In this document: in pieces, positions 2,364 through 57,254 of the stretch | Position numbering within the stretch: position 1 is the first letter of the stretch | How the letters are laid out: the number at the start of each line of letters is the position of its first letter | Sequence record: NC_041869.1 | Source of the DNA: Escherichia phage APECc02 | DNA: 64,000 bases | Strand: one strand, 5' to 3' | Position numbers and translations under genes: made by a program | Notes under the pieces: model-generated | Told to the model about the DNA's origin: nothing | Databases searched by the model: none | Seen by the model: the letters and a program-made list of their open reading frames with translations, nothing else

Positions 2364-2370
2364 GGAATGT

Positions 2371-7500: not shown

Positions 7501-7784
7501 GAGTTGCTACACTGTTTATTGCGTGCTTGTTATTATGTGGGTGTGCAACCAGCGTTGAGAGAGAATACAAGATTGACCCTCCGGATGTAGGAAGGTTGAT
7601 TGTTAAACCCCCGGAAGGTGCCATGAAACCACCTGCTAAAGCTATGCCTTTGAAGAAAGGTGCTCCAGATGCAGTAAATTCTGGCATTATGAGGGATAAT
7701 AATTTGTCTTGTAGCAATGATAGAGCTAAATTGATCATTTTGCAAGACTATATTAGAACACTGTTTCCAAAGGAGAGAGGTTAA
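7497..7784 (+). CDS. o-spanin-like outer-membrane lipoprotein
   Basis: Signal/lipobox LLLCGC then Pro-rich mature region; start overlaps upstream stop (ATGA). Confidence 0.55.
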   Translation: MRVATLFIACLLLCGCATSVEREYKIDPPDVGRLIVKPPEGAMKPPAKAMPLKKGAPDAVNSGIMRDNNLSCSNDRAKLIILQDYIRTLFPKERG

Positions 7785-8218
7785 TGTCTAAGATTTCTAA
7801 GATTTACGGACCGTGTTCTGAAAAGCAGAAGATGATCCTCGAAAACGATGCAGATATTTTGGTAATCGGCGGTGCCGCAGGGTCTGGCAAGTCGTTCCTC
7901 TTGCAGTTGATGCCGCTTAAAATTATTGATGACCCACACAGCTCTGTGGTTATGTTCCGAAGAACAACCCCGCAGTTGGAAGGTGAGGGTGGACTATGGC
8001 CTAAAGCAGTAGCTATTTATAGTGATCTGCCTGAAAACATTAAGCCAAAGTTTAGAGAGAAGGATCATAAGTTCATTTTTCCACGGTTTGATCCGAGCAC
8101 TGGCAAGTGGGATAGAAGCAAAAAGGGAGCTGTTGTAAAATACTGCCACATGGAGTATGTACAAGATAAGCTTAACCATCAGGGGCTTGAGTACACCATG
8201 GTTTGCTTCGATGAGGGT
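7784..8218 (+). CDS. terminase large subunit, exon 1 (ATPase domain)
   Basis: Walker A GGAAGSGKS, Walker B-like MVCFDE; ORF stops at 8219-8221 immediately after DEG, inside intron. Confidence 0.75.
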
Positions 8219-34686: not shown

Positions 34687-35018
34687 TGAATATTTTTACC
34701 CTTGGATTCACTGACAGGGAGGACTTTAACGGTTTCATGGATGAAATCGGCTTTTATGAGAATGAGGTGTTGCAAAACACCCTTCTTGTAGAGGTTGTCG
34801 GGTTCATTTACACAGAGACTGGAGACACTTATGAGGCCGAAGATGAATTTGGCAACATGGTTGTCTACCCGGTTTGCGAGAAAAGTGAATTGTTTTATGT
34901 TAACGTTCTGGCTCTGGACGAGGATGCAGAAAACATCGTCTCTAAAAGCGGAAAAGTTGTAGATCCGATAAGGTTGAACATGTTCGACCCATCAGTATCC
35001 ACCTTGGAAGCACTTTAA
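34686..35018 (+). CDS. hypothetical protein (possible fibre chaperone)
   Basis: 110 aa, overlapping start with fibre stop. Confidence 0.35.
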   Translation: MNIFTLGFTDREDFNGFMDEIGFYENEVLQNTLLVEVVGFIYTETGDTYEAEDEFGNMVVYPVCEKSELFYVNVLALDEDAENIVSKSGKVVDPIRLNMFDPSVSTLEAL

Positions 35019-35025
35019 AGTATTG

Positions 35026-36685: not shown

Positions 36686-39600
36686 TGCCAATTGCAATGA
36701 TTGATAACATCGTTGCTTCTGCAAGATCTTCAAGTTATGACTGGAACGCATCCAAGGCAGCTCTGGCTGACAGCCTGAACACTGTGACCACCAGAACTTT
36801 GGATAAGATTTTTGAGGGCAACAAATCTTACAGAAGTCAGCAAGATAGACAAAAGCTTCTCAGATCTTCTGCTGCACCTTGCTCTGTAGTGTATGGAAAG
36901 ACACGCACATCTGGATTGCTTGCGTTTTTGGAGCAGGATAGCGACAGAACCCTCCATTGTGCTATTGTTCTTGCCAATCACCCTCTGGAAGGTATAGAAG
37001 ATATACTTATCGACGGTAATCCTATTTCCTCGTATGGAGATCTGGTATCGTGGGAGCTACATAACGACAGAAAAACATCTGATCCTTTCATGGGTACACA
37101 CTGCCCATCATGGTCACCTGACATGATAGGTAGAGGGATCAGTTGGCTACGTGCCAGCTTCAGGTTTGACCCTAACAAGTTTCCTTTTGGGTTGCCAAAC
37201 GTTACACTCGTTAAGGTTGGTAAAAAATGCTATGATCCTCGCATCAGTAAAGAGGTGTATACCAATAACGCGGCCTTGGTGATTCTAGACTATTTAAGAA
37301 CGTACCTTAAATGTCCTGACGAAACCATCAACTGGGAGTCCTTCAAGGAGGCTGCTAACATATGCGACGAGGCGGTAAAAAACGCAGACGGAACCAGTGA
37401 GCGCCGATACACCATTAATGGCGAGTTTGACATGGACGAGGCTCCGGCAAGCATTATGGCAGAAATGCTGAAAGCTTGTGGCGCAGATCTCAGCTATGTA
37501 GCTGGTAAGTATGGTTTGCTGGTTGGTGCATACTATGGCCCGGCAACAATGACGCTGAGTGAGGATTGTGTCTGTGGTGAGGTCAAGATCTATCCGGAAG
37601 CCTCATTTGACAAAAGATCCAACACAATAACTGGCAGATTCACTAGTCCGACCAAAGGGTATTCTGAAACAGATTTTCCATCAGTGTTTGTCCCAGAGTG
37701 GATAGAGAAGGATGGAGAAAGAAAGATAATCGATATAGACTATCGCTTTGTTACCAGTCCTTATCAAGCTCAGCGTGTTTCTGCAATCTTCCTAAGACGT
37801 GCCAGAGCTGGCAGGATTATTGAAGTCACCTGCAATATGCGAGGTTTCAAATTTAAACCTGGTCGTTACGTTACAATGGACCTCCCAAGTATTGGTATAG
37901 TGGGCCAAGAAATGAGAGTTCTTGAATGGGAGTTTACCAAAAAGGGTGGTGTCAAGGTAAAACTTCGTCAAGATGCTAAAGAGTGGAATGATGCCACAGG
38001 ACAACTTCCGGATTCTGGCGATGTAGATATTCCAATATCTCCATCTGGTGTAGCTCAACCGCAAAACTTCAGATATTCCGTTCTCCAAGCTGGAGAAGTA
38101 ACTCACGGTGTTTTGGCTTGGGACAACGTTGGGACCTACGCTCAAAATATTGTGCAGGTAAGAAAGAACGGAGAGATTGTTTGGACAGCACAAACAGTTG
38201 AGCAGTTTGTCCGAGTAGAAGGCTTGACCAAAGGGTCATACACAGCAACCGTGGTTGCAACATCTTATAAAGGTGGCGTATCTCCGGAAGCATATTGTGA
38301 GTTCAACATTCAGGCACCTGAAGCTCCTGTTTCTGTGGAGGTTAAACAGGGATACTTTGCTATTACCCTGATCCCGCACAGCAGAGACTTGGCTAGTGTA
38401 AGCACCCAGTACGACTTTTGGACATCTGGGATGACAAGATTGCCAGATACCAGTGATGCAACCGTTACTTCAAAAGCCACTCGTATGGGTGTTGGTTCAA
38501 CTTGGACATCTGAAGGTCTGCAGAACGATAAGATTTATTACTGGTATATCAGGACAACAAATGCTTTTGGTTCATCTGCTTTTGTGGAGTGTGCAGCCCA
38601 CTGTTACACATCCATAGAAGATCTTATGCCACAGATTGATGCTGAGTTCAAAAAGACAGAGACTTATAAAGAGCTTACCGCCAATCTTGATAATGCAGTC
38701 AAGGAAATGGATAAAAATGTTGGTGCAGTCAATGACCGTGTTACTAGCATTTTTGAAGAGCTTGGGGATACAATAGAGGGTGTTGTCAGAGAGACGACAG
38801 AAAAATTTACAGGGGTTAATGGAGAAATTTCTGCCCTTAACAGTAAGCTGGTAGCAGCTCAGCAATCCTTTGACGATAAACTTGCAGCAGAGTCTGGTAG
38901 GCTTGGGTCACTAATCGAGACAACAAATAGATCAACCGTTGATCTTGTTAATCGTAAAACTCAAGCATTGAGTGAGCAAATAACTGCAACGCAAGGTACT
39001 CTGCGGGAAGAGTTGAAGAACACTGAGAGCAAACTTAACTCCTCTATTCAAGAAACCAACAAGGCAACAACCGATCTGCTAAATAAGACAACGGAAGCTA
39101 TTAAGCAGGATCTGGTGGCAGCTACAGGGAAGATCACCAAGCTGGAAGATGATGTGCAGAAAGAGGTTGCCAATCTGCAAGCATCTATTCAAGAAACTAA
39201 TAGTACAACAGTTGATCTTGTTAATAATACAGCCACAGCGATCCGTCAAGAACTTACCTCTGCAAAACAAGAAATTGTTGACGAAATGGGTAATATTGAT
39301 GAGCTCAGGGCTACAGTATCTAATACCTCTAAAGCTGTAACAACACTTGAGGGTAAAATAGATGCTCAGTGGGGAGCTAAGATTCAGGTAGACTCCGCAG
39401 GGAATAAATATGTTGCAGGTATCCAGCTGGGGATGGAAGGATCTGGGGGCCAAGTTCAATCCTACTTCATGGTTAGTGCAAACAATTTTGCGGTATACAA
39501 CCCCGGAAATGGAACAGCAACCCTTGCTTTCGCAATCAAGAACAACCAAGCGTTCTTGAAAGACGCTTTTATAGAGAATGGCACGATCTCCTCTGCCAAG

Positions 39601-44662: not shown

Positions 44663-45703
44663 ATGTCAAAACCTAGTTTTCCATTAGAGATTTGGGCAGA
44701 GGAGGATCAGGTTCTGCCTAACACCCACAGACAGAACAGGCTACGCCCGATTGATGATTTGTGGAGAAAAGGTTGGGATCTTGGTCAAAAGCCCTCATGT
44801 GAAGAACTTAACTATATTTTCAATATGCTCGGGACTTGGGCAAAATACATTGCTGACGAGCAGATCCCCGCTCAAGAAGGCCGTTATCTGGTACGTGATA
44901 ATAACTTGAGCGATCTTTTGAACATCCCTGTTGCCCGTAGAAACCTTGGGATTATCACTAAGGAAGAGGCAGACGCCAGGTATGTAAAAGTTACAGGTGA
45001 TACAATGACAGGCCCCTTGGGGTTGCAACGTATCAACTTTAAAGCTGCCGAGACAGATAAGGCTTGGATAGAGACAACTATTGGCCCAGATAAGACAACT
45101 CTCGACTTTGGGTTAAGTGATAATACCGGGTCGTTTGATGATGGTGGTACATCTACAGTGGATGCGTTCCGTTGGAGATTCCAGCCAACTCAGCCGGATA
45201 TTAATCCAGAGTTCACTTTGATGTACCTTAACGCGATCACGGCTAACCGTGCGCTGTTGAAAGTGGTAGGCAATGTTGAAGTTGTCGATAACATGAGGTG
45301 CAATAACCTTACTATCAGCAATACAGCGACATTCACCAACTGTAATGTGGCTAGTCAGTTGACGGCTGGGTCAGTGTATGTTAATGGTGGTGCAAGTTGT
45401 GACAGTATGGTTGTAAGAAGCCAGCACTGTGTTGTCGGTAACAGAAATGTGGTTCGCTCTGTGAACGGAGTGACGGCTAACGGTAACGGTGATGTAACGA
45501 TCACTATCCCGCAGACAGGTGTGCAAGACATCAGAATCGGTGCAAGACTTGTGGACGGAGTTTCTGAATCTCCAATCCGCAACGGCTACGTTGTCACAGG
45601 CTGGCATTTCGGTGACAAAAAAGAGATGCGTGGTTCAACCTACTGGGCAGGACCTTTACAAAAACTTGTAAATGGTCAATGGATCACTGTTAATTATGCA
45701 TAG
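44663..45703 (+). CDS. receptor-binding tail fibre protein (paralog A)
   Basis: 346 aa; termini conserved with 46718 gene (ends GPLQKLVNGQWITVNYA). Confidence 0.55.
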   Translation: MSKPSFPLEIWAEEDQVLPNTHRQNRLRPIDDLWRKGWDLGQKPSCEELNYIFNMLGTWAKYIADEQIPAQEGRYLVRDNNLSDLLNIPVARRNLGIITKEEADARYVKVTGDTMTGPLGLQRINFKAAETDKAWIETTIGPDKTTLDFGLSDNTGSFDDGGTSTVDAFRWRFQPTQPDINPEFTLMYLNAITANRALLKVVGNVEVVDNMRCNNLTISNTATFTNCNVASQLTAGSVYVNGGASCDSMVVRSQHCVVGNRNVVRSVNGVTANGNGDVTITIPQTGVQDIRIGARLVDGVSESPIRNGYVVTGWHFGDKKEMRGSTYWAGPLQKLVNGQWITVNYA

Positions 45704-45717
45704 ATCGGAGGACTAGC

Positions 45718-46302
45718 ATGAAAATACTTCAAGAGTTTAAACTTTACCAACCGGGATCTGGCGAATACCGCACCAACAAGGAAACCAAGGAGCTGACCCC
45801 TCAAGAGGTTGAGGATTACACAGCATACACTGGGTATTTTTTACGTAATGATGATGGCGATTGGTATGTGCAGTCACGAACATTGCGACAAGAAAATCCG
45901 GGTTGTATCTTCCTACTTGTTGACGAGAAGGGAATTCTTAAGACATCTACAGAAGAACCTGATGCCTTATGGCCTGCTCCAGGTCTTCGTGTGGTTATCG
46001 CCAAAAAAGAAGAGGTACCAGAAAACATTATGCTTCACCACGACGCTTTGCGTTTAGTTGGTGATGAATTTGTCACAGATAATGAATTCTTTGTTCAACA
46101 GGCAGAGGGTGTCATAGAGACAGAACTTGCTTGGGCTACTGCTAGAATTGGTGCCTATCAAGACGTGATTGACCTTGAATATGATCTTACTGATGACCAG
46201 AAACGTAACATCAGAGATTTGAAAATGTACAGGGTAAAACTTCTTGAAATAGATACATCTAAAGCCCCTGACATTTTCTTCCCGGAGCGACCTACCCTCT
46301 AA
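45718..46302 (+). CDS. tail fibre assembly protein (Tfa-like)
   Basis: 194 aa; C-terminal DDQKRNIRDLKMYRVKLLEIDTSKAPDIFFPERP matches the conserved Tfa ending. Confidence 0.7.
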   Translation: MKILQEFKLYQPGSGEYRTNKETKELTPQEVEDYTAYTGYFLRNDDGDWYVQSRTLRQENPGCIFLLVDEKGILKTSTEEPDALWPAPGLRVVIAKKEEVPENIMLHHDALRLVGDEFVTDNEFFVQQAEGVIETELAWATARIGAYQDVIDLEYDLTDDQKRNIRDLKMYRVKLLEIDTSKAPDIFFPERPTL

Positions 46303-46313
46303 GAGGAGGTGTT

Positions 46314-46628
46314 GTGGAGTTGGATTTGGCGGCATTGTACGGTATCTGCATGGGTACCGTTGTCCCGATCTGTGTATGGGCTTTCAACCAGTGGCACACC
46401 AAATGGAAAGGCATTTCCAAGAGGTTGGATGAACTGGAGAAAGACCTCATCTTAGTGAAAAACAGTATGGTTACAAAAGATAAACTTGATTCCGTTATCG
46501 AGACCCGGTTAAGCAAGCTAGAGGCCGATATTAACGACCTTAAGCAGGATGTCAGGACAGATGTCTCCGGTATCCGAGCTGATGTACAAAAGATTTTGCA
46601 CATGCTCGTAGAGCATAGTAAAAGGTAA
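46314..46628 (+). CDS. hypothetical membrane-anchored coiled-coil protein
   Basis: GTG start with AGGAGG RBS; N-terminal hydrophobic helix LAALYGICMGTVVPICVWAF. Confidence 0.45.
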   Translation: MELDLAALYGICMGTVVPICVWAFNQWHTKWKGISKRLDELEKDLILVKNSMVTKDKLDSVIETRLSKLEADINDLKQDVRTDVSGIRADVQKILHMLVEHSKR

Positions 46629-46717
46629 ACAAAGGTCAGAACGGAAAGGACTCCGTTCTTGCATTTTGTTCTCTAAAGTGTTAAAATAGTCCTAAGGAAT
46701 TTTCTCAGGAGAACGCG

Positions 46718-47761
46718 ATGACTAAACCAGTTATCCCTCTTGATATTTGGGCCAATCAGGATGTTGTGCTTGAAAATACGGGAGAGTTGAATAAGTCTCA
46801 ACCAAAAAAAGAAGAGAGATTGAAAGGTTGGGATATGGCACAAAGAGTGGCATGTGAAGTTGTTAACTTTGAACTTCACATGCTTTCTGCGTGGTTAAAG
46901 CATCTAACAGAAGATGTTGTCCCAGGATGGGATAATAGATTCTTAAGGGTCACTAATAATCTAGCAGACGTTCCAGACAAAGCTGCTGCACGTCAAGTTC
47001 TCAATGTATACTCGCCTGAAGAAATGGACGATTTGTATGTTGACAAGTCTGGAGACATAATGACTCAGACTCAAACTTTAGGTCTTCAAAGAATCGAGTT
47101 TGCATCTGCGTCAACAGACAATGCGGCAATATATACCACCATAACTCCAGACAAGACGACGATGGATTTCTGGATTATGGACAACATCGGTGGTGCTGAC
47201 GGCACAGACCTTGATGATCCTTCTCACCAAATAGACGGGTTCCGTTGGAGATTTCAACCTTCTGGTGGGCAGCCTGTGTTTTCGGCTATGAAGCTCAATG
47301 CTATAACTGCCAACCGTGCAAGACTGGCCATCCAAGGAAATCTTGAATGCAACGATGCAAAAAGTTCCTCTGCAAATGCCAATGCGGTCACGATACCAAG
47401 AGCCACTGTTAACGGACAACAATCCTGCGGAAGCGCTCAAATAGGTGGAAGAGTTGATTGTAACGATGAAACAGTCAGGGGTCAATATGCAACAGTTGGT
47501 GGAAGAAACGTGGTCCGCAGGGTAAATGGTAACGGCGCAGACAGTAGTGGTAACCTTACTATCCCTATGCCCAGCAGAGGGGTTGATGATGTAAGGATAG
47601 CAAACCGTTTCAAAACCACCTACAGAGAGTCAAGAGTCTACCCTGGACATGTGATGTGCTCTGGTAACTACGCTTATAAACACCCTTATCAAGGTGATTA
47701 CTGGACAGGTGCTATCCAAAAACTTGTAAATGGTCAATGGATCACTATATCTTATGCTTAA
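46718..47761 (+). CDS. receptor-binding tail fibre protein (paralog B)
   Basis: 347 aa; ends GAIQKLVNGQWITISYA; N-terminus similar to paralog A. Confidence 0.55.
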   Translation: MTKPVIPLDIWANQDVVLENTGELNKSQPKKEERLKGWDMAQRVACEVVNFELHMLSAWLKHLTEDVVPGWDNRFLRVTNNLADVPDKAAARQVLNVYSPEEMDDLYVDKSGDIMTQTQTLGLQRIEFASASTDNAAIYTTITPDKTTMDFWIMDNIGGADGTDLDDPSHQIDGFRWRFQPSGGQPVFSAMKLNAITANRARLAIQGNLECNDAKSSSANANAVTIPRATVNGQQSCGSAQIGGRVDCNDETVRGQYATVGGRNVVRRVNGNGADSSGNLTIPMPSRGVDDVRIANRFKTTYRESRVYPGHVMCSGNYAYKHPYQGDYWTGAIQKLVNGQWITISYA

Positions 47762-47772
47762 AAAGAGGGTAA

Positions 47773-48039
47773 ATGAAACTAACTCAGTTTTTATGGGGAC
47801 TGGTTGCGGCATCTGATGACCCTACGAAAGTGTCCCAAACTAAGCTATGGTCGAACATAGGCATGGCGGTGATGACTGGGGTGTTTATTCATATGGGGTA
47901 TAATGATACGCTTCCTGAATGGTATGCGTGGATATACGCGCCTTCAGTAGCTTGCCCCCAGCTTATTAGCAAATTCATCTCGCTCCGGTGGGGTTGCCAG
48001 CACCCTGACCACGTTAAAAACGAAGAGCAAAAAGCTTAA
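47773..48039 (+). CDS. hypothetical small membrane protein (two predicted TM segments)
   Basis: 88 aa; hydrophobic segments FLWGLVAASD and IGMAVMTGVFIHM, charged C-terminus. Confidence 0.4.
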   Translation: MKLTQFLWGLVAASDDPTKVSQTKLWSNIGMAVMTGVFIHMGYNDTLPEWYAWIYAPSVACPQLISKFISLRWGCQHPDHVKNEEQKA

Positions 48040-48048
48040 GGAGAAATC

Positions 48049-49809
48049 ATGGCGCAAGACATGACAAGCTTTGAGCAGGCGGTAGATCAAGTAATTGTTG
48101 ATTCTGAACGTTTGCACTTGGTTGTCAACGGTAACGCTGTGGATGAAGTTGTCGTAGAGGATGGGACCACCATCCCTACGGTACGAAAAGCCATGCTTGA
48201 CAACCTTTATTTTAAAACGCCACCGATCCCTTGGGCGTATGGTGCATCCACAACAGTTTTTAACCAGCTGTACGAGTTTAAAGGGGACACAGGCCCTCAG
48301 TGGTGGTACGCTCCCGCAGCATCAAAATCTAACCCGGTTAGAATGCCAGCAGATCCTTCACAATCTCCAAACTGGAGATTATATACCGACTCTGCAGTAA
48401 TGGCAAAATACTACGCAAAACTTAACAGCCCGAGGTTCGAAGGTGACCCACGAGTACCTACACCTCCAATGGACGATAAGTCAGAGTCCATAGCAAACAC
48501 AGAGTTTGTTGTTGACTATGTTGATAGCATATTTAAAGCCATGGAGGGGATGAAAGTTACTGTAGGGTCTTTGGTGGTAAAAGGTCTTACAGAACTCGCT
48601 AACACTATAGTTGGTGGCACCCTTACCTTACATGGACCTGTTAATGGGGCAGATTCTACTGCACGCTTTAGGAATCTAATCCTCACGGCAAATACTTCTA
48701 CACTTACTTTTGCGTGGAGCGATCCTAAGCATGCAGACTGGAGAAGTACAGAGCTGCAACCTCATGAAGTGTCCACCCACAGGGTTATAGCTGACAGGGT
48801 TATAGCTGACACTATAACTTCTGGGAAACCAGTGGCTAATAATAACGATGTGCATTTTGATGGTCTGGGTAATAACTTTTTTGACTACGTGTACATTCGT
48901 GGTAATGCCATGAAGGCAGCAACCGAACCGACATTGCAGGTCGATGGGACCACCAGGGTTAAGAACCTTGAGGTGACAGGTACCGTTACAGGGATAACAT
49001 ACTCTGTCGATGGCACCATGATCTACCCTAGCTATATTGAAAGCACGGGTGATGCATTGATAAATGGCGATTTGGAGGTTGGCGGGTCTGTAGTTATTCG
49101 AGGTACAGCCTCTATCCAAAATATAGCTCTGAATACTCTAAGAGTCAATGAGCGTGCAACTTTTGAAGGAGAAGGGCTTACAGCCAATAAAGGTACAATT
49201 ACCGAGCTAACCACCACCACTTTAACTGCAACAACTGCAAACTCTGAAAACTGCAACATTACCAGAAACTTGCAGGTAAATGGAGATGTTAGTTTAAACG
49301 CCGCAGGGACTGGCACCACCCACCTTCACAACCTTGAAATATCCGGCACAGTGACCGGGTGGCTGCCAGACTTCTCTAATGTCAACTTTGTCTGTAATGG
49401 CATTAACTCCAGTGGTAAGATAACCACCTCTCAAGAAATTGAGGCGGGTAAAACCATTACTGCCCCTACTTTCCACGCAGGAAAGGTAGATTTTGACTTA
49501 GAGGAGGTTGACGCGTCCAGTGGGACATGGACACCTAACGGGCAGGCCAGCATGTATGTTGTCCACGCGAAAGGGGATTTTACAATAGGACAGTGGCCTG
49601 GGACATCAGCGGAAGATAAACCTTATCCATTCACTGCAGTTATCTATGTCATTCAGGATGCTGTAGGTCACAACGTGACTTTGCACGATAAGTATGCTAT
49701 CCTGTCGGCAACACCTGTTATTAACAACAAGGCTAACAGTGTTACCTTGCTGCAATTAACGTATTGTGGTGTTGGTGATATTGTAGACGTAGTAATTGCA
49801 CAACGTTAA
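48049..49809 (+). CDS. tail fibre protein
   Basis: 586 aa, Thr/Gly/Asn-rich repetitive beta-type sequence. Confidence 0.5.
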   Translation: MAQDMTSFEQAVDQVIVDSERLHLVVNGNAVDEVVVEDGTTIPTVRKAMLDNLYFKTPPIPWAYGASTTVFNQLYEFKGDTGPQWWYAPAASKSNPVRMPADPSQSPNWRLYTDSAVMAKYYAKLNSPRFEGDPRVPTPPMDDKSESIANTEFVVDYVDSIFKAMEGMKVTVGSLVVKGLTELANTIVGGTLTLHGPVNGADSTARFRNLILTANTSTLTFAWSDPKHADWRSTELQPHEVSTHRVIADRVIADTITSGKPVANNNDVHFDGLGNNFFDYVYIRGNAMKAATEPTLQVDGTTRVKNLEVTGTVTGITYSVDGTMIYPSYIESTGDALINGDLEVGGSVVIRGTASIQNIALNTLRVNERATFEGEGLTANKGTITELTTTTLTATTANSENCNITRNLQVNGDVSLNAAGTGTTHLHNLEISGTVTGWLPDFSNVNFVCNGINSSGKITTSQEIEAGKTITAPTFHAGKVDFDLEEVDASSGTWTPNGQASMYVVHAKGDFTIGQWPGTSAEDKPYPFTAVIYVIQDAVGHNVTLHDKYAILSATPVINNKANSVTLLQLTYCGVGDIVDVVIAQR

Positions 49810-49818
49810 TATATCTAA

Positions 49819-49844
49819 CCGCTCCTGACGGGGCGGTTTTCTTA
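49819..49844 (+). terminator. rho-independent terminator
   Basis: CCGCTCC-TGAC-GGGGCGG then TTTTCTT. Confidence 0.6.
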
Positions 49845-49857
49845 TCTGGAGAACACA

Positions 49858-50295
49858 ATGCTTCCAATCCCTTTGCTAAAACTTGGTCGTCATTTCCTCG
49901 ATAAGAGGGGTGGAATTAAGGAACTTGCTGTTCTGTCATACCCAATAGACAACAGTGATGGTACAAGCAACACAGTATCCTATGTAAATAGCTTAGCTAT
50001 ACTTTTTGATGATGGTCAGCTTAATATTACTGGCTATAATAGGTTCGGAGAGTGTCGGACTGGAGATCTTGATACAATAAACTATCCTAATGAGGCAGCT
50101 TGGAACGTAGACCATGTTTGGAGAGCTGACCGTGCATTTGTAATCCGCACATTCGATAATAAATTTTTCTATATTGGTTGCACAGCTGGTCTTATCGGGA
50201 TCGGAGGCAGCAGGTGGAAACGATGTTTGTGTCAGAGAGTGGGCACCTTTGCCGGAACAGATCGTAACAGGGTTGCATTTGGACACCCATCCTGA
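49858..50295 (+). CDS. tail fibre-like protein, N-terminal segment (frame 1)
   Basis: GGAG RBS; overlaps open frame 2 from 50144. Confidence 0.4.
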   Translation: MLPIPLLKLGRHFLDKRGGIKELAVLSYPIDNSDGTSNTVSYVNSLAILFDDGQLNITGYNRFGECRTGDLDTINYPNEAAWNVDHVWRADRAFVIRTFDNKFFYIGCTAGLIGIGGSRWKRCLCQRVGTFAGTDRNRVAFGHPS

Positions 50296-51223
50296 GAGAC
50301 TTGTTGAAGTAATGGGTGGCGTAAACAATACAGTGTGGGTAATTGCTGCACCAGAGGCTGATGGTATGCTTCACCTGTACGGCTCTGGCAATAATACTTA
50401 CGGCTCTCTTCATGTTGACAAAAGTCAACACGCTACTCCAGTTAAGATCGGTGAAACATCTGAAAGTCCAGAGACAGGTCCTTGGAAAAATCCAAGAATT
50501 AATTGTGAAGTTCATGACAACTCGGTTATTTTTGGTGGTCCTAACGGATTCTGGATTGCAGGTTACGATTTCTTAAGAAATAACAGCAAAAACACACTAG
50601 TTTATCCAGCCGAGCATGTGACTCTTGACCAGTTTAAAGGCATCCCGGTGGGCGAGACATGGAAAGGGTTCATGTGTGGACCTAATGGTGCAATTATAGC
50701 CACAGAAAGGATGCACAAACCTGATGACCAACAGCTTGTTAATGTGTTTTATGGTCAGGATGTTTGGGGTGACGACACGTGGAGAAGCCTTAACATCACC
50801 TATACCCATGAAGTAATTATGGCTCGCGGGTACGGGACTAGTGGAATTTTCTTCAATAATGGTACAAAACAGTACCGTGGTTTCTCCAGAAACCTGTGTA
50901 ACGATATTGGTGCTCAATCTGCTAATAATAGTCCTAGGGCCAATTTTATTCATTACAGAGCGCTGGCAACAGCTAAGTTTGTTGAACAGACAGAGCCAGT
51001 AAGCTGGACAGAAAGCGTTTATTTTCAAGGGATCCACAGGGAAGGTTTCTTAGGCACATTCTGTGTGGTAAATGGAAAGCTTTGGTGGTCAGGAATACCA
51101 CGTGGTAGTTTTTCAGGATCTAATAACCTCTTTAGCGGCAGACTTAACAGCCAAGGGTTGCTAAAGTTTTCTCAGGTATTAAATGGAATCTACCTGTCCA
51201 AAGTATTTCATGGAAGCAAATAG
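50174..51223 (+). CDS. tail fibre-like protein, middle segment (frame 2; no ATG/RBS, likely continuation)
   Basis: 349-codon ORF; first in-frame start candidate is TTG without RBS. Confidence 0.4.
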   Translation: MVAQLVLSGSEAAGGNDVCVREWAPLPEQIVTGLHLDTHPERLVEVMGGVNNTVWVIAAPEADGMLHLYGSGNNTYGSLHVDKSQHATPVKIGETSESPETGPWKNPRINCEVHDNSVIFGGPNGFWIAGYDFLRNNSKNTLVYPAEHVTLDQFKGIPVGETWKGFMCGPNGAIIATERMHKPDDQQLVNVFYGQDVWGDDTWRSLNITYTHEVIMARGYGTSGIFFNNGTKQYRGFSRNLCNDIGAQSANNSPRANFIHYRALATAKFVEQTEPVSWTESVYFQGIHREGFLGTFCVVNGKLWWSGIPRGSFSGSNNLFSGRLNSQGLLKFSQVLNGIYLSKVFHGSK

Positions 51224-51324
51224 GTGATAACAAGCTGCTGGTTACCCCTGCCTGTCAGTTCAACGCAACTCTTAACGTTGATCCTGCTGTTGCGGCAAAC
51301 TCAGCTAAAGCTTCTGACTTCTCT

Positions 51325-52530
51325 GTGTCTAACACTGCTATGGCAGATGTGAGGAAGATTGACACGCTGAACGCCAGAATTACCTGTAAAAACACTTATG
51401 GCACATTCCAAATCATCAACAACTTCACAGATGCTGATTCTAAGGTAGTGAGGACAGCAAGCCAGACTCTGAGTTTAGGGACTCTGGCCTATGCGGCCCT
51501 GATCACCGAACAGTCGGCAACACTCCAAGGAGGCGGTGTAGGCAAGTCCATTGCAACACCTGTGTGGAAGCCGAATGAGTGGGTTGTGTTTGATTTGACT
51601 GTGGACTTCTCCAGTGATAATAACTGGACATGGGTAAGGAATTGTTTGTCACAGTTGATGGGCGGTCCAAGCTCCGTTAGTGATAGTCACGACTCTACTG
51701 ACCCGAGTGTGTTCCAGGTAGGTAAAACTCACCCAGAGACTGGAGAAACGTTGCCTGACAGGAAGTATGCGTTGGTTTGCATCTCTTACGGGAAGGCAGA
51801 TGTCACCTTCTCAGGGACACACACTTATAACGGAACCTACAATTTCTCAAGGAAGTATAGTCTCAAAGCAGGGAACATTATAGACGAGGTTGGTGCACTG
51901 TATAATCCTGGCAACGGCATAGGGATTGTGGGTGGTCAACTGCAGATGCAGGAACCTTCTATTACCCCTTCCAACGTATCTGGGATTAGAAAGACTTGGG
52001 AAAGTAGCAATACCAACATTGCAACAGTGGATGCTACCACAGGACTGGTAACATTTAAAGCTACTGGGAATGTCACCATAAAGTTTGTAGTTACAGATGA
52101 TGCAGGCCGCAAAACGTCCTCAACATCATTCACTGTCAAACAGATGGCACCTCAGTGGTTTATTTGGGAAGGAAATCCTCTTGACGGGGCCTACCCTAGA
52201 CCTGCAGGAACGTCTAATATGAGGGTCTTTACCGGTCCGGTAATGAACAATCCGACCACAACCACCAACCCTACATTTTTTGGTGCTTACATACCTGAAA
52301 TTATTGGCCTACCAAGGAACCAGATACAACTGCTTTTCGGAGCAGGTGTTGATGGTCTAGCCACTTTTGGGTACAGTGACAACATTGATGCAGCCAGAAG
52401 CTCGGGTTGGATTGGATTTAAGTTTCAGTGGAACCCTGGTGGTAGAACATTAGGTCTTGCAAGCATAGGTGTTATGCTACCTGGTAACCAGCAATACCAT
52501 CTCGAAGCTTATACAAACTTCCCTAGTTAA
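51325..52530 (+). CDS. tail fibre-like protein, C-terminal segment with bacterial Ig-like (BIG2-type) domain
   Basis: Frame 1 is open from 51148; Ig-like segment ITPSNVSGIRKTWESSNTNIATVDATTGLVTFKATGNVTIKFVVTDDAGRKTSSTSFTV. Confidence 0.45.
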   Translation: MSNTAMADVRKIDTLNARITCKNTYGTFQIINNFTDADSKVVRTASQTLSLGTLAYAALITEQSATLQGGGVGKSIATPVWKPNEWVVFDLTVDFSSDNNWTWVRNCLSQLMGGPSSVSDSHDSTDPSVFQVGKTHPETGETLPDRKYALVCISYGKADVTFSGTHTYNGTYNFSRKYSLKAGNIIDEVGALYNPGNGIGIVGGQLQMQEPSITPSNVSGIRKTWESSNTNIATVDATTGLVTFKATGNVTIKFVVTDDAGRKTSSTSFTVKQMAPQWFIWEGNPLDGAYPRPAGTSNMRVFTGPVMNNPTTTTNPTFFGAYIPEIIGLPRNQIQLLFGAGVDGLATFGYSDNIDAARSSGWIGFKFQWNPGGRTLGLASIGVMLPGNQQYHLEAYTNFPS

Positions 52531-52540
52531 CAGGAGGAAA

Positions 52541-52572
52541 ATAAAAAGGGGCCAAACGGCCCCTTTCTTTTT
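52541..52572. terminator. bidirectional rho-independent terminator between convergent operons
   Basis: A-run, GGGGCC-AAAC-GGCCCC, T-run. Confidence 0.7.
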
Positions 52573-52576
52573 ATAA

Positions 52577-52777
52577 TTAGTAATATTCCCAACACGACCC
52601 ATCTTCAGACGGCTGGACACGCTTACCTTCATGATCGACATAGGTGTAACCACAGCCTTCACAGATAACAGGTGCCGCATAACCTTCCTTCCACTGCTTC
52701 TCCGTGATCAATCCTTTCAGATCTCCGCAGTCACGACCAAACAACTCTTCAGAACAGTCTTTACAAAAATCAGCCAT
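52577..52777 (-). CDS. hypothetical Cys-rich (zinc-ribbon-like) protein
   Basis: 66 aa; CKDC...CEGCG. Confidence 0.4.
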   Translation of the reverse strand: MADFCKDCSEELFGRDCGDLKGLITEKQWKEGYAAPVICEGCGYTYVDHEGKRVQPSEDGSCWEYY

Positions 52778-52843
52778 CTCTATCAGTCTCCATATTTAAC
52801 CAATCTATATTACATATTGCCGAAGAAACAGTATTTCATTTCA

Positions 52844-53062
52844 TCACAGATCTCCAACAACTTCCCAAATACCCCAGTGAGCATCTATATCCTTGATAAA
52901 GTATCTTTCTCCACGGTTTGTCCACACACCTATCCCAACTTTACCATCTATCCCATTGTATACATCTGCCTCATACTCTTTGCCCGGTGTAAAGTGTACA
53001 CCCATCATAAGGGCTGTTATTCCGTTAGGATTTTTAAATTTAACAAATTTTACTTTGCTCAT
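52844..53062 (-). CDS. hypothetical protein
   Basis: 72 aa. Confidence 0.4.
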   Translation of the reverse strand: MSKVKFVKFKNPNGITALMMGVHFTPGKEYEADVYNGIDGKVGIGVWTNRGERYFIKDIDAHWGIWEVVGDL

Positions 53063-53063
53063 A

Positions 53064-53393
53064 TTACTTAATCCTTGCAGTTACAGTAGCGCTATACCCC
53101 ATGTAGTTATGAGACATAAAGAATGTAAGCCCTTTAAGTTCAGGATTCTTTCTAAGAAATCGTTTCAATTTTCGAATGCAATTAACACCATGATCATAGT
53201 TTGAGAAATTAAATTTAATACCCTGCTCCATCATAGTGCACACTTCTTCATGGGTATGCCATTGTCTATCGTGGTCACAAAACCAGTAACCAATACCTTC
53301 TTTTTCTTGGATATGCAATCCCCAAAATACTTTATGCATTGGATATTTTGGTTTTCTACCATGATAATGTAGTTTAATATTCACATGTGCCAT
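53064..53393 (-). CDS. hypothetical protein
   Basis: 109 aa. Confidence 0.4.
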   Translation of the reverse strand: MAHVNIKLHYHGRKPKYPMHKVFWGLHIQEKEGIGYWFCDHDRQWHTHEEVCTMMEQGIKFNFSNYDHGVNCIRKLKRFLRKNPELKGLTFFMSHNYMGYSATVTARIK

Positions 53394-53562
53394 TTTTTGT
53401 TACTCCGTTCTGTATCTGTGATAATGAGAATAGCAAACTGGGGTGTGTGCTGTCAACAACATTTTTTAAGCGTTTTGGGGAAGTTTTTTGAAAGGTGGGT
53501 GTAATCACAAGAGAGGGTGGAGTTATTGAAGGCACAGGCCTCTTTTGAGGCCTTAAAATCGA

Positions 53563-53943
53563 TTATGACACTTTGACGTAGCGCTCTGACAGAGCTGGAA
53601 AGCCAAAAGCAGTACCTACACTGCCGTACGCTATCCACCATTGAAGTTCATCGTGACACCATTTTCCGATCAGAAAGGTGCTTGGGTAGCGGGTCAGTAT
53701 TTTGGCATAAGCTTTAGGGTCTGCATCCTCTGGGATAATGATGCTTGGAACATCTTTGTTATGACCACAGCAGCAGTTTAGAGTTTTCAATCCTGCCGCC
53801 CATAGACTCATGATAGGCTTAGCCATGCACTTATCAAGGCACACACGTTTTTTGCCGTCTCGAAGTTTTTTAGGCACATCGACGATAACATTTGGATGCT
53901 TGGCACCTTTCACTTTCCAATTATAGGATTTACACTTGCACAT
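53563..53943 (-). CDS. hypothetical Cys-rich protein
   Basis: 126 aa, CxC...CCCGH. Confidence 0.4.
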   Translation of the reverse strand: MCKCKSYNWKVKGAKHPNVIVDVPKKLRDGKKRVCLDKCMAKPIMSLWAAGLKTLNCCCGHNKDVPSIIIPEDADPKAYAKILTRYPSTFLIGKWCHDELQWWIAYGSVGTAFGFPALSERYVKVS

Positions 53944-54150
53944 TTAATCAGTCTCCGTCTAGAAAGCAATACTTTACTTAAAATCTTTGTCACCTATTAC
54001 GATTGCACGAATCCACTCATTGTGATGTTCAATGGCGGTAAGGTGTAACATAATGCAGTGATTGTCATTACTAAACACGGTGCGGTAAGCTTTGGCAGCA
54101 CCATGATATAACTTCCACATCAGGTAATGATATCTTCGCCTCATGACTCT

Positions 54151-54621
54151 TTACTCCGGTTCAGGGTCTGGGTAATCTTCAATAATAAAGGGCCATCCGT
54201 TCCGCTTAGCCTCAGACTTATACTCAATCTCCTTCATTGCAAACTCTAACTGATTCTTAGCCGGAATACATGCCGGAGAATCATCAATCCAGATATCTGG
54301 GTAGATATCAAACTGCGCCAGATAGGCTGCCTTCTGAACACCACCAGTATAAAACACACCAACATCAAGCTCCTTGCGCCAATACTCAATGTCTACATTG
54401 TCTTGAGTAATGAATCGGAAAGTCACAAGGTAGACTGTCCACCCCTCCTTCTTCAGATCCCTGGTCAGGCGGGAGAAGATGAAAGGGCTCGCATTAAACG
54501 TTCCATCAAAGTCAATGGCAATGATGTGCGTGCCGTGGCGAGTCTCATATGGATTGCTCGTGGTAAGATTGCTGTAATTAAAAGGGACTTCTTCCCCGCA
54601 GTAGCTGTAGTCCATATTCAC
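54151..54621 (-). CDS. HAD-superfamily phosphatase
   Basis: Motif I IAIDFDGT (DxDGT). Confidence 0.6.
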   Translation of the reverse strand: MNMDYSYCGEEVPFNYSNLTTSNPYETRHGTHIIAIDFDGTFNASPFIFSRLTRDLKKEGWTVYLVTFRFITQDNVDIEYWRKELDVGVFYTGGVQKAAYLAQFDIYPDIWIDDSPACIPAKNQLEFAMKEIEYKSEAKRNGWPFIIEDYPDPEPE

Positions 54622-54893
54622 ACCTTCTCGTTGATAAATTTACGGGCGGTTTGGTGAGTTGTTTCTGCTGTCTTCAGAATGATATTAATTTTATTGTCAA
54701 GATCATTCATCTCTGCAGTTAATTCAGGAATCTCTCCGGCATGCATGGTAAAATCATACATAGACATGCCCAGAATCTCATTGATGCGGCGGTTGCATTC
54801 TGCAGCACGCTGGTTCATTTTCCAAGCTAACACCAAAGCCTCCTGCGTAGCCTCTAGTGCAAAATCTAATACGTCGGCCTCTTCTTTCGTCAT
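54618..54893 (-). CDS. hypothetical protein
   Basis: 91 aa, overlaps downstream start by 4 nt. Confidence 0.4.
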   Translation of the reverse strand: MTKEEADVLDFALEATQEALVLAWKMNQRAAECNRRINEILGMSMYDFTMHAGEIPELTAEMNDLDNKINIILKTAETTHQTARKFINEKV

Positions 54894-54952
54894 CTCAGTC
54901 TCTCCTGTTGTATTGTTGTTGGTAGGTGCATGAATACCTTATAACTCACCTT

Positions 54953-55519
54953 TTATTCAAACTGTAATAGCAAGTCCACTACCGCGCTAGGTCTGTCAAC
55001 AAATTCCCCAGGTCCACATGCCCACAGAGGGTATCCGTCTACATACCGCCAAATCCAACCTGCGGTGTGGAGTTCGAGCAGGGCAGTGCCGTCCTTACTG
55101 TCAACCACTCTTTCCCACAGTGTTGGGCAGCGAAGCTTGAGAATCGGATCACCCCCCTTATACCCGTCCATGTAGATACCCATTGCAAAGTTCAGCATCA
55201 TCTTTTTGTGCACTGATCTCTTACTGAGGGTGCTCATCACTTCCTCTTTGTGAATGTTTGTAAGCTTCTCTTTGGCTACCCGCAGATCGTTGCAACCATT
55301 GTTCAGCAGATCTTCCAAACACTTAATCCGAAGGTCGTGAATGTCTTTGTCGTGTACCGTTGGCACAGGGTCGTAGCGGTATAGCACTGTTGATACGAGG
55401 TTGCTCGGGTGTGGGTCTGACAGCAACCCATAGCCCCAATACTCTTCTGTATCTGAAAGGACAAGACACCCAATGTCTCTGTCAAGCTTTCCTGTGTTGT
55501 AAGCCACATTGACCGCCAT
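54953..55519 (-). CDS. hypothetical protein
   Basis: 188 aa. Confidence 0.45.
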   Translation of the reverse strand: MAVNVAYNTGKLDRDIGCLVLSDTEEYWGYGLLSDPHPSNLVSTVLYRYDPVPTVHDKDIHDLRIKCLEDLLNNGCNDLRVAKEKLTNIHKEEVMSTLSKRSVHKKMMLNFAMGIYMDGYKGGDPILKLRCPTLWERVVDSKDGTALLELHTAGWIWRYVDGYPLWACGPGEFVDRPSAVVDLLLQFE

Positions 55520-55521
55520 GA

Positions 55522-55767
55522 CTATAGCTCCACTAGCAAAGTGCTTTCAAAGTGACGTTCATGCAGACCGTTGTAAGGGACCACTTCCACAACGCCATCA
55601 CGGACATATGGGGCCATCATGGTGGTATAATCTCCAAACGGGTTGGTATTGTCACTAACCACAACCACCTTCTGCCCTTCCTTGGCAGAGTGCCAAATAG
55701 ATCTGCACTTCATCAGGTGTTCGAGAGCCCCAGGTAAAATTTTGTTACGTTCTTTACGGGTCTTCAT
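55522..55767 (-). CDS. hypothetical protein
   Basis: 81 aa. Confidence 0.4.
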   Translation of the reverse strand: MKTRKERNKILPGALEHLMKCRSIWHSAKEGQKVVVVSDNTNPFGDYTTMMAPYVRDGVVEVVPYNGLHERHFESTLLVEL

Positions 55768-56213
55768 AACAGGTATAGCTCCTTATGAAAGTGATCTTTT
55801 AATTTCTCACTGAGAAACTTCTTGATACCTTCCTCTAAAGTGTTTTCGATGTAGTCCAGCTTAACTGCTTCGATGGACATATCATAGATCGCCAGCTCTA
55901 AGCTGTCAAGTCCCATCATAGCATGAACCATAAGATTTTCATCTTCAGATACATTCAGGGGACTTCCTATGACATCTGGAGGCAGAATAGTTTCCCAATT
56001 ATTCTGGGTGGTAGTTCTCCCTCCCTCTGCTTTACGGCGCAGTTCGAATGTGTTCTTAGTGTAGAACACTTCATAAGAAACGATACGACTGTCGCTCTCA
56101 TAATAAACGAAGTTCAGGTAGGAGCCTAGCCGCAGTCGGCAAACTTCCACCCCAAACCATTGTTTCTTATAAGAATTTAGGCTAATGCTGTCGCATTCAC
56201 GTTTGCTCAACAC
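55764..56213 (-). CDS. hypothetical protein
   Basis: 149 aa. Confidence 0.45.
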   Translation of the reverse strand: MLSKRECDSISLNSYKKQWFGVEVCRLRLGSYLNFVYYESDSRIVSYEVFYTKNTFELRRKAEGGRTTTQNNWETILPPDVIGSPLNVSEDENLMVHAMMGLDSLELAIYDMSIEAVKLDYIENTLEEGIKKFLSEKLKDHFHKELYLL

Positions 56214-56464: not shown

Positions 56465-56728
56465 TCAGAAACCCTCTAAAAAGCTCTTGTAGAAAACAAT
56501 CTCAGTATCCACACCAGTCACGATCTTGTCGTTCCTGATTTCATCGGTAAGATAGGTGTCAAAACGCAGAACCTGTGTGGTGTTGTCACACATCCACTCT
56601 GCTGTGACCATGGCGAAAATCTTAGCATCTTCATTATCTGGTGTGAATGTTACCACCTCACCGCATTTAAACTTTTCGATAGGTTGAGTGTTAGCTTTCG
56701 GTTCTGCGATAGTGATTTTTGTGGTCAT
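56465..56728 (-). CDS. small paralog family member C (87 aa)
   Basis: KCGEVVTFTPDNEDAKIFAMV aligns with PCGTVVSCDGDGIQNIVMIV of member B. Confidence 0.55.
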   Translation of the reverse strand: MTTKITIAEPKANTQPIEKFKCGEVVTFTPDNEDAKIFAMVTAEWMCDNTTQVLRFDTYLTDEIRNDKIVTGVDTEIVFYKSFLEGF

Positions 56729-56991
56729 TATTCTCCTCCTTCTTTTGAATAGCTTGTCTCTCCAAGGATGGTAATTTTGGTGTCAAGCTCTGTAACTTTC
56801 ATGTTTGGTGGCAGATCGTACAACTCATTATTTTCTAAATCAAACCCCCACACACAATGTTCTCCTGTTTTGACAATCATAACTATGTTTTGAATGCCGT
56901 CTCCGTCACAACTTACCACGGTCCCACACGGGAAGCTGTCTGCACGCTTTTTGTTCTTCACCTTAGAATTGAATACAATGCTAGTAGCCAT
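56728..56991 (-). CDS. small paralog family member B (87 aa)
   Basis: About 40 percent identical to member A by eye (MAT..F.S..K.KK, GTVV, VK, FDL, LP..VTE.D..I.ILGE). Confidence 0.55.
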   Translation of the reverse strand: MATSIVFNSKVKNKKRADSFPCGTVVSCDGDGIQNIVMIVKTGEHCVWGFDLENNELYDLPPNMKVTELDTKITILGETSYSKEGGE

Positions 56992-57254
56992 TATTGTTCC
57001 TCCACCATAACTTCGCCAAGAATTTCTATGCAGGCATCCATTTCTGTAACAACCAAACTGTGAGGTAGTTCTACAAACACCTTTCTGAACAAGTCAAATA
57101 CCCCAACATATATGTTTGCAGGATGTGATTTTACAACAAGTGCTGTATTCACATCCCCAAGCTCATCAACAAACATCACCACAGTGCCTGGAGCTACGGA
57201 AGACAGATACTTCTTAGTTTTACGGTTTGATGCAAATTTTAACTCTGTTGCCAT
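56991..57254 (-). CDS. small paralog family member A (87 aa)
   Basis: Identical length to B and C; TAATG stop/start overlaps. Confidence 0.55.
   Translation of the reverse strand: MATELKFASNRKTKKYLSSVAPGTVVMFVDELGDVNTALVVKSHPANIYVGVFDLFRKVFVELPHSLVVTEMDACIEILGEVMVEEQ

What the first reader, a model, noticed from the sequence alone, without database searches (positions are those of the whole stretch)
49858..52530. Tail fibre gene split across three overlapping reading frames
Seen in sequence: frame 1 (49858..50295), frame 2 (open 50144..51223) and frame 1 again (open 51148..52530) overlap pairwise. The second and third segments lack ATG/RBS, and both overlaps contain similar homopolymer motifs (aaatttttct at 50161-50170; aaagttttctc near 51160). 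Inference: one roughly 890-aa fibre interrupted by two compensating shifts, from programmed slippage, phase variation at homopolymers, or assembly indels.
Basis: partly seen in the sequence, partly recalled or inferred. Interest (0 to 1): 0.5.

Follow-up and report, generated by a model that had tools for sequence, protein, structure and literature searches.

The report
Broken accessory tail-fibre gene remnant
The three overlapping reading frames are the wreck of one giant (about 1875-residue) accessory tail-fibre gene of an rV5-like coliphage, broken by a one-base insertion and a 2956-base internal deletion; this is ordinary gene decay, not programmed frameshifting.

Summary
ORFs in frames 1/2/1 (49858-50295, open 50144-51223, open 51148-52530) are colinear pieces of one gene. 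It is not an 890-aa gene. It is the ortholog of rV5 gp27 / Bas54_0041 ("lateral tail fiber protein with intimin domain"), a single ORF of 1874-1878 aa in every relative examined. Alignment fixes both frame changes. The first is an extra G (GG to GGG, 50197-50199). The second is a 2956-bp (3n+1) deletion between two copies of a 10-bp direct repeat, GCCAAGGGTT, of which one copy remains at 51150-51159. Neither is found in about 110 deposited relatives or in four other sequence collections. An independent Logan assembly of the same phage (run SRR5495036) matches the window at all 10,938 compared bases except that it lacks the extra G. Its two contigs end and start exactly at the edges of the 10-bp repeat, which indicates that the reads hold both deleted and undeleted alleles. 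Translation from the only good start gives a truncated 145-aa product, or 454 aa without the extra G. Transposon data show the intact ortholog is dispensable on E. coli K-12. Verdict: a pseudogenised accessory fibre gene, comparable to the lambda PaPa stf frameshift, and of low interest.

The parts
49817..49838 (+). Terminator-like hairpin ending the upstream 586-aa fibre gene. It marks the 5' boundary of the locus.
   Evidence: sequence
49848..49860 (+). GGAG ribosome-binding site (49848-49851) and ATG start (49858-49860). This is the only good translation start in the locus.
49858..50196 (+). Remnant part 1 (frame 1): native codons 1-113 of the gp27/Bas54_0041 ortholog.
   Evidence: (PHROG 15684 positions 1-115)
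50197..50199 (+). Lesion 1: GGG where all relatives have GG. The extra base moves the native reading frame from frame 1 to frame 2. It is absent from the independent Logan assembly of the same phage.
50293..50295 (+). Premature TGA reached by ribosomes that stay in frame 1. The product is 145 aa: 113 native residues plus 32 out-of-frame.
50198..51157 (+). Remnant part 2 (frame 2): native codons 114-433. It shows weak similarity to RCC1-like repeats.
   Evidence: (PHROG 15684 positions 111-436)
51150..51159 (+). Lesion 2: the single retained copy of the 10-bp direct repeat GCCAAGGGTT. This is the junction of a 2956-bp (3n+1) deletion that removes about codons 434-1416 and moves the native frame from 2 back to 1.
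51221..51223 (+). TAG stop in frame 2, 21 out-of-frame codons after the junction. Without the extra G the product would be 454 aa.
51151..52530 (+). Remnant part 3 (frame 1): native codons 1417-1875 plus the stop. It contains the Big_2 Ig-like domain (segment residues 262-318). It has no start codon with an RBS of its own.
   Evidence: (PHROG 15684 positions 1417-1877)
52543..52568 (.). Bidirectional terminator hairpin at the 3' boundary of the locus.
   Evidence: annotated at the same place in rV5

Best explanation
The region is a pseudogenised copy of the giant Ig-domain 'lateral tail fibre' gene of Vequintavirus phages (rV5 gp27, Bas54_0041). Two loss-of-function lesions sit in it. The first is a one-base G insertion after codon 113. 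The second is a 2956-bp out-of-frame deletion produced by slippage or illegitimate recombination between two 10-bp direct repeats (GCCAAGGGTT) that lie 2956 bp apart in the intact gene. Ribosomes starting at the only proper start (49858) terminate at 50293, giving 145 aa, or at 51221 (454 aa) if the extra G is not real. No full-length or shortened fibre is made. The phage tolerates this because the gene is an accessory host-range fibre that is not needed on laboratory E. coli. Shown directly: the two lesions, their exact positions, their uniqueness, and the dispensability of the ortholog. Inferred: that the deletion arose in vivo, probably during propagation; that the sequenced stock was a mixture of deleted and undeleted genomes; and that the loss is neutral or mildly advantageous.
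For: The window is an rV5-like phage, and the region matches the 5' 1.35 kb and the 3' 1.55 kb of one 5.6-kb CDS in relatives. Base-level alignment shows a single gap (the extra G at 50197) and a break at 51159/51150 with 2956 bp missing. The 10-bp repeat is present at both ends in MaxBurger, rV5, RudolfGeigy and two metagenome assemblies, in different codon phases and without flanking similarity. PHROG 15684 is matched colinearly at positions 1-115, 111-436 and 1417-1877. No deposited relative matches the 81 bases around the G site exactly, and the 12 best rows each align them to 80 record bases; no GGG is seen in any of the nine directly inspected loci (GG confirmed in seven; in L001 and L013 the flanks are too diverged to score). 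None of 118 relatives has the junction. The junction is also absent from IMG/VR, metagenome, GTDB-genome and E. coli collections. Seven further assemblies carry a single ORF of 1874-1878 aa. An indel audit over about 57 kb found no other uncompensated frame-breaking indel inside any CDS, so the assembly is otherwise clean. Logan contigs from run SRR5495036 are identical to the window except for the extra G. They end and start exactly at the edges of the repeat. With k=31 this requires both junction and alternative paths in the reads (for the Logan parameters). The intact gene holds 28 10-mer direct-repeat pairs against about 18 expected, so such microhomology is commonplace. HIDEN-SEQ reports that bas54_0041 tolerates disruptive insertions and is dispensable on K-12 (bioRxiv 10.1101/2025.11.20.689424).
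Against: No reads were available, so the allele frequencies of the junction, the undeleted path and the extra G are unknown. The extra G is not reproduced in the independent assembly, so it may be a consensus error or a minority variant. The undeleted middle contig of the same run could not be retrieved, so the coexisting wild-type allele is inferred from graph topology only. It could also come from a co-sequenced related phage. Other contig ends at 44900 and 55828 are also unexplained by repeats within the window. Whether the intact protein is truly a fibre rests on annotation. It is not named among the virion proteins listed in the rV5 proteomics text, and a term search of that paper's supplements did not find it.
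Confidence: 0.78

Rival explanations
1. Both lesions are sequencing or assembly artefacts. The real phage carries the intact 1875-aa gene, and the window's assembler followed a rare chimeric or minor junction path and miscalled a G.
For: The independent Logan assembly of the same phage lacks the extra G. The contig breaks at the repeat edges show that an alternative, presumably undeleted, path exists in the reads. The run appears to be mixed, because other contig ends are not explained by repeats.
Against: Junction k-mers must be present in the reads and must survive the Logan graph clean-up for the contigs to break there. Assemblers do not join sequences at a 10-bp overlap. The window is otherwise free of frame-breaking indels in CDSs over about 57 kb, and it equals the Logan contigs at all other 10,938 compared bases, including the T6 intergenic tract at 53399. 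A one-copy-retained direct repeat is the classic signature of an in vivo deletion.
Confidence: 0.15
2. Programmed recoding or phase variation. In this reading the ribosome shifts +1 near 50197 and -1 near 51160, or tract-length switching restores the frame, to make an approximately 890-aa shortened fibre.
For: The two shifts cancel arithmetically, and a conceptual fusion would join the native N-terminal 433 aa to the native C-terminal 459 aa. The sequence GGG-A at 50197 and A-AAG at 51162-51165 are in principle slip-prone at a low level. That point rests on my own knowledge of E. coli frameshifting and was not tested.
Against: Relatives read straight through an uninterrupted ORF, so no recoding signal is conserved. 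There is no X XXY YYZ heptamer at either site (sequence). There is no stable structure downstream (z = 0.12 and 0.88). The tract is only 2-3 G long and does not vary among relatives. Two independent inefficient events would have to be multiplied. The named homopolymer motifs are not at the shift points and are not enriched.
Confidence: 0.02
3. The locus encodes three separate functional proteins, each translated from its own start. This would be a split, modular fibre.
For: The ORF finder can assign TTG 50174 and GTG 51325 / ATG 51340 as starts.
Against: None of these candidate starts has a Shine-Dalgarno-like sequence upstream. There is no excess of promoter-like sites in the region (5 found against 5.4 expected). 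The split is unique to this genome, whereas every relative has one ORF. The segment boundaries coincide with mutational lesions, not with domain boundaries conserved elsewhere.
Confidence: 0.03

Closest known systems
rV5 gp27 (YP_002003529, 'Ig-like domain-containing protein') / BASEL Bas54_0041 'lateral tail fiber protein with intimin domain' (PHROG 15684)
   Same: The remnant is orthologous and syntenic. The retained parts are 99.4-99.8% identical in nucleotides to MaxBurger. The upstream 581/586-aa fibre gene, the downstream bidirectional terminator and the Big_2 domain are all the same.
   Different: Codons of about 434-1416 are missing and the frame is broken twice, so no full-length protein can be made.
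Lambda PaPa stf frameshift (Hendrix & Duda 1992, as cited in PMC12617516)
   Same: An accessory side or lateral tail-fibre gene is inactivated by a frameshift in a propagated phage lineage and appears as adjacent ORFs in different frames. The fibre is dispensable on laboratory hosts (for the rV5-like ortholog).
   Different: Here there is a large microhomology deletion in addition to the 1-bp indel. The phage is a virulent myovirus with several other fibre sets. No phenotype has been measured.
Programmed translational frameshifts in phage tail genes (lambda G/GT type; Ig-like domains appended by -1 frameshift, Fraser et al. 2006; from my own knowledge)
   Same: There are overlapping ORFs in different frames within a tail-gene region, and an Ig-like (Big_2) domain lies in the downstream frame.
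   Different: The arrangement is not conserved in relatives. There is no slippery heptamer and no stimulatory structure, and the shift points are mutational lesions.
Microhomology-mediated (replication slippage / illegitimate recombination) deletions in phage genomes
   Same: A 10-bp direct repeat is present at both ends in the parental sequence, one copy is retained, and there is no flanking homology.
   Different: Nothing differs. This is a textbook example.

Membership tests
rV5 gp27 / Bas54_0041 giant Ig-domain lateral tail fibre (PHROG 15684) | Colinear sequence match to the family profile | tested here: met
   The three segments match profile positions 1-115, 111-436 and 1417-1877 of 1878, with E-values from 1e-73 to 4e-298.
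rV5 gp27 / Bas54_0041 giant Ig-domain lateral tail fibre (PHROG 15684) | Single uninterrupted ORF of about 1875 aa | tested here: not met
   The gene is split over frames 1/2/1 and 985 codons are missing. Relatives have ORFs of 1874-1878 aa. The region is therefore a remnant or pseudogene of the family, not a functional member.
rV5 gp27 / Bas54_0041 giant Ig-domain lateral tail fibre (PHROG 15684) | Synteny: downstream of the 581-aa phiTE_241-like fibre gene and followed by a bidirectional terminator | tested here: met
rV5 gp27 / Bas54_0041 giant Ig-domain lateral tail fibre (PHROG 15684) | C-terminal Big_2 (intimin-like) Ig domain | tested here: met
   PF02368 is matched at E = 2.5e-9 at residues 262-318 of segment 3. 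There is also a weak intimin match in the PDB.
rV5 gp27 / Bas54_0041 giant Ig-domain lateral tail fibre (PHROG 15684) | The protein is physically part of a virion fibre | not testable with these tools
   This rests on annotation only. The protein is not listed in the rV5 virion proteomics text, and a term search of the supplements did not find it. The AF2 models were unusable.
Programmed ribosomal frameshift site | The two-frame arrangement is conserved in relatives | tested here: not met
   No exact match to the G site in 108 records, 0 of 118 with the junction, and a single ORF in every annotated or called relative.
Programmed ribosomal frameshift site | Slippery sequence at the point where homology changes frame | tested here: not met
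   Shift 1 lies at CTT ATC GGG ATC. Shift 2 lies at CAA GGG TTG CTA AAG. Neither contains an X XXY YYZ heptamer, and only a generic A-AAG tetramer follows the junction (sequence).
Programmed ribosomal frameshift site | Stimulatory RNA structure downstream | tested here: not met
   The z-scores are 0.12 and 0.88 against dinucleotide shuffles.
Phase-variable contingency locus (homopolymer/SSR) | A long mutable tract at the shift site, with length polymorphism among strains | tested here: not met
The tract is GG in seven of the nine inspected loci (the other two are too diverged to score; none has GGG) and GGG here. The second shift is a deletion junction.
Microhomology-mediated deletion | A direct repeat at both breakpoints in the parental sequence, one copy retained, no extended flanking homology | tested here: met
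   GCCAAGGGTT occurs at L002 5316-5325 and 8272-8281, 2956 bp apart. It occurs at the same spacing in rV5, RudolfGeigy, L010 and L011. The flanks are unrelated.

The most novel reading that the evidence does not exclude
The deleted allele might not be dead. Low-level +1 slippage at ATC-GGG-A (50194-50200) and -1 slippage at CTA-AAG (51160-51165) could together yield an approximately 892-aa 'mini-fibre'. It would join the N-terminal RCC1-like part directly to the C-terminal Big_2-containing part, with the extra G selected as a partial suppressor of the out-of-frame deletion. A milder version is that loss of this giant fibre is positively selected during laboratory propagation, which would make it the rV5-group counterpart of lambda stf.
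Probability: 0.02. Interest if true: 0.5.

Novelty: already known. Interest (0 to 1): 0.13.

Why it matters
It matters little beyond annotation hygiene. The locus should be annotated as a disrupted gene or pseudogene (or re-checked against reads), not as three hypothetical proteins or a recoding site. It gives a natural knock-out of the giant Ig-domain fibre of an rV5-like phage, which agrees with transposon data that this fibre is dispensable on K-12. It also hints that the sequenced stock was heterogeneous at this locus. If the isolate is used for host-range or therapy work, it probably lacks one of the group's accessory fibres, which could narrow its host range on strains that need that fibre.

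Tried and rejected
Tests that excluded an idea:
The motifs are not at the shift points and are not enriched.
- No repeated 31-mers exist in the window that could explain the Logan contig ends.

Searches that found nothing:
- The junction 41-mer or 81-mer was sought in IMG/VR, JGI metagenomes, GTDB genomes and E. coli complete genomes. There were no hits.
- The 145-aa truncated product is not on record. Look-ups of two other window proteins (1479 aa, 492 aa) also found nothing.
- A full-text search for SRR5495036 returned no paper.
- A search of the rV5 proteomics supplements for gp27 found nothing.

Attempts that failed technically:
- I tried to recover the undeleted middle contig of run SRR5495036 by a homology search with the deleted 985-aa segment. 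The protein database returned only distant relatives (46-52% identity) and a partial sequence, not the close family.
- AlphaFold2 models of segment 2 and segment 3 with 3-5-sequence alignments had pLDDT of about 31 and were unusable, so no fold search was run.
- Pfam found nothing in the deleted 985 aa. The PDB sequence search gave only marginal intimin Ig hits.
Full report
**1. Observation**

An ATG ORF lies in frame 1 at 49858-50295 and is preceded by GGAG. Frame 2 is open from 50144 to the TAG at 51221-51223. Frame 1 is open again from 51148 to the TAA at 52528-52530. No start codon in segments 2 and 3 up to the annotated ORF starts has a Shine-Dalgarno-like sequence upstream; the only exception is ATG 50366, further inside segment 2, with a 4-nt match. 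The two motifs exist at 50161-50170 and 51163-51172. The pattern AAANTTTTCT occurs 4 times in the window against 1.5 expected, and 5 of 100 shuffles reach 4, so their similarity carries no weight.

**2. What the region is**

The window is a Vequintavirus (rV5-like) coliphage, about 98% identical to the closest deposited genomes.

- The 5' 1.35 kb of the region matches the start of one large CDS in relatives at up to 99.8% identity.
- The 3' 1.55 kb matches the end of the same CDS at up to 99.4% identity.
- In the relatives these two matches lie about 3 kb apart.

That CDS is rV5 gp27 ("Ig-like domain-containing protein", 5637 nt). In the BASEL phages it is "lateral tail fiber protein with intimin domain" (Bas54_0041 in MaxBurger, 5628 nt, 1875 aa). 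PHROG 15684, a profile of 1878 positions, is matched colinearly by the three segments at positions 1-115, 111-436 and 1417-1877. Pfam recognises only a Big_2 Ig-like domain, which is retained in segment 3, and a sub-threshold RCC1-like signal in the N-terminal part. It finds nothing in the deleted middle.

**3. The two lesions**

Base-level alignment to MaxBurger shows exactly one gap in the 5' block. The window has GGG at 50197-50199 where the relative has GG. The 5' block ends at window 51159 and the 3' block starts at window 51150.

The shared 10 bases, GCCAAGGGTT, occur twice in the intact gene, 2956 bp apart. The two copies are in different codon phases (S-Q-G-F versus G-P-R-V) and have no similarity in their flanks. 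The window keeps one copy. The same breakpoints and the same 2956-bp gap appear against rV5, RudolfGeigy and six metagenome or isolate assemblies.

So the frame 1 to 2 change is a +1 insertion, and the frame 2 to 1 change is a 3n+1 deletion that removes about codons 434-1416. The sum is -2955 nt, or 985 codons. This explains why the first and last segments share a frame. Two frame-breaking lesions cancel by chance about half the time. They also do not compensate in translation, because frame 1 contains a stop at 50293 and dozens more before the junction. Ten-base direct repeats are commonplace in this gene, with 28 pairs observed against about 18 expected.

**4. Uniqueness and assembly quality**

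- No deposited relative matches the 81 bases around the G site exactly, and the best hits align 81 query bases to 80 record bases.
- None of 118 deposited relatives has a match covering the junction.
- The junction is absent from IMG/VR, JGI metagenomes, GTDB genomes and complete E. coli genomes.
- Seven additional assemblies all have one ORF of 1874-1878 aa at this position.
- An indel audit of the window against MaxBurger covered about 57 kb. Every other indel inside a CDS was a multiple of three, was locally compensated in a divergent stretch, or lay at the very end of the CDS. The extra G is the only uncompensated frame-breaking indel. The assembly is therefore not generally error-prone.

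**5. Independent assembly of the same phage**

The neighbouring 586-aa protein carries a private 15-bp duplication. It is encoded on a Logan contig from run SRR5495036.

- That contig equals window 44900-51159 at every base except that it lacks the extra G. There the first 433 codons form one ORF.
- The contig ends exactly at 51159, the last base of the repeat.
- I predicted that the next contig would start at 51150 and would encode PRVAKVF... A look-up of that partial product found contig SRR5495036_1156. It starts at 51150 and is 100% identical to window 51150-55828.

Logan uses k=31, drops k-mers seen once, applies SPAdes-like graph clean-up, and reports only contigs longer than 150 bp (PMC12424806). 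With k=31, a 10-bp repeat cannot create a branch. A pure deleted population or a pure intact population would each assemble straight through.

Contig ends at exactly the two edges of the repeat are expected when both junction k-mers and an alternative path are present. The junction k-mers would form a 50-bp unitig, which is too short to be reported. The alternative path is presumably the undeleted one. The reads therefore contain both alleles. This could reflect heterogeneity within the stock or a co-sequenced related phage. The other contig ends (44900, 55828) are also not explained by repeats in the window. I could not retrieve the undeleted contig, because the protein search does not return the close family.

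The status of the extra G is therefore open. It could be real and linked to the deleted haplotype. It could also be a minority variant or a consensus error. I put it at roughly even odds, leaning towards real, because the rest of the assembly is clean.

**6. Consequence and mechanism**

From the only good start, the product is 145 aa (113 native residues plus 32 out-of-frame). Without the extra G it is 454 aa (433 native plus 21 out-of-frame). The Big_2-containing C-terminal 459 codons have no start of their own.

Recoding is not supported:

- There is no conservation of the split in relatives.
- There is no slippery heptamer at either site.
- There is no unusual downstream structure (z = 0.12 and 0.88).
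- The tract is only 2-3 G long and does not vary among relatives.

The most likely reading is a microhomology-mediated deletion plus a point indel in a gene under relaxed selection. This is supported by transposon mutagenesis of the very close relative Bas54. [quoted passage not shown] Vequintavirinae carry several fibre sets, described as a "nanosized Swiss army knife" (PMC8594841).

**7. Comparison with what is known**

The closest analogue is lambda PaPa. A frameshift in its stf gene abolishes the side tail fibres of the original Ur-lambda isolate without affecting plaque formation on laboratory hosts. T5 side fibres are likewise non-essential (PMC12617516, citing Hendrix & Duda 1992). The present case is the same kind of event in a different phage group, with a large deletion added. 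It is not a programmed frameshift of the lambda G/GT type, nor an Ig-domain appendage made by -1 frameshifting. It is also not a phase-variable locus. The membership table lists the tests.

**8. Verdict**

It is wrong about the size of the gene, the sites of the shifts and the mechanism. This is an ordinary decayed accessory gene with a possible consensus error, so interest is low. The useful outcomes are a correct annotation and the note that the source stock appears heterogeneous at this locus.

**9. Dead ends**

AlphaFold2 models of both remnants were unusable, with pLDDT of about 31. The PDB sequence search gave only marginal intimin Ig hits. No paper mentions the run. The rV5 virion proteomics text does not list gp27, and a term search of its supplements did not find it, so its status as a virion fibre rests on annotation.

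Noticed in passing
window 48779-48793 (inside the 586-aa ORF 48049-49809): There is a private in-frame 15-bp tandem duplication (ACAGGGTTATAGCTG twice; protein RVIAD-RVIAD) in the upstream 'lateral tail fiber protein with glycosidase domain' gene. The gene is 586 aa here against 581 aa in all relatives examined. The duplication is also present in the Logan contig of run SRR5495036, so it is real. It is the same slippage-type class of mutation as the big deletion.
   Followed up: partly
window about 7797-7805: A 9-bp in-frame tandem duplication (TCTAAGATT twice) lies near the 5' end of the terminase large-subunit gene, relative to MaxBurger.
   Followed up: no
window about 7780-10220 (aligned to MaxBurger 683-3113): In MaxBurger the terminase large subunit is annotated as a two-piece joined CDS with a putative homing endonuclease ORF inside, which suggests an intron or intein-like insertion. 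The window aligns colinearly through this region, so it probably carries the same insertion.
   Followed up: no
Logan contigs L006/L007 ends at window 44900 and 55828: The independent assembly of the same phage also breaks at 44900 (inside a short tail fibre paralog gene) and at 55828. No repeated 31-mer in the window explains these breaks. This suggests further heterogeneity, or a second related phage, in run SRR5495036.
   Followed up: partly
window 33194-35020, 38673-39229 and 56742-57240: These stretches do not align to MaxBurger at the blastn level. The first two fall in the distal parts of the large lateral fibre genes (1479-aa and 1199-aa ORFs), which fits the allelic variation of fibre tips described for the group. 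The 1479-aa product is not on record anywhere in the protein-position index.
   Followed up: no
window 56465-57254, minus strand: Three tandem 87-aa ORFs of equal length lie back to back. They correspond to three adjacent 87-88-aa hypothetical genes in MaxBurger (bas54_0052-0054), which suggests a small tandem paralog array of unknown function.
   Followed up: no
phages collection, records MG065635-MG065682: About 15-18 unannotated GenBank records named 'Campylobacter phage' are 97-99% identical to this E. coli rV5-like genome. The host label looks doubtful.
   Followed up: no
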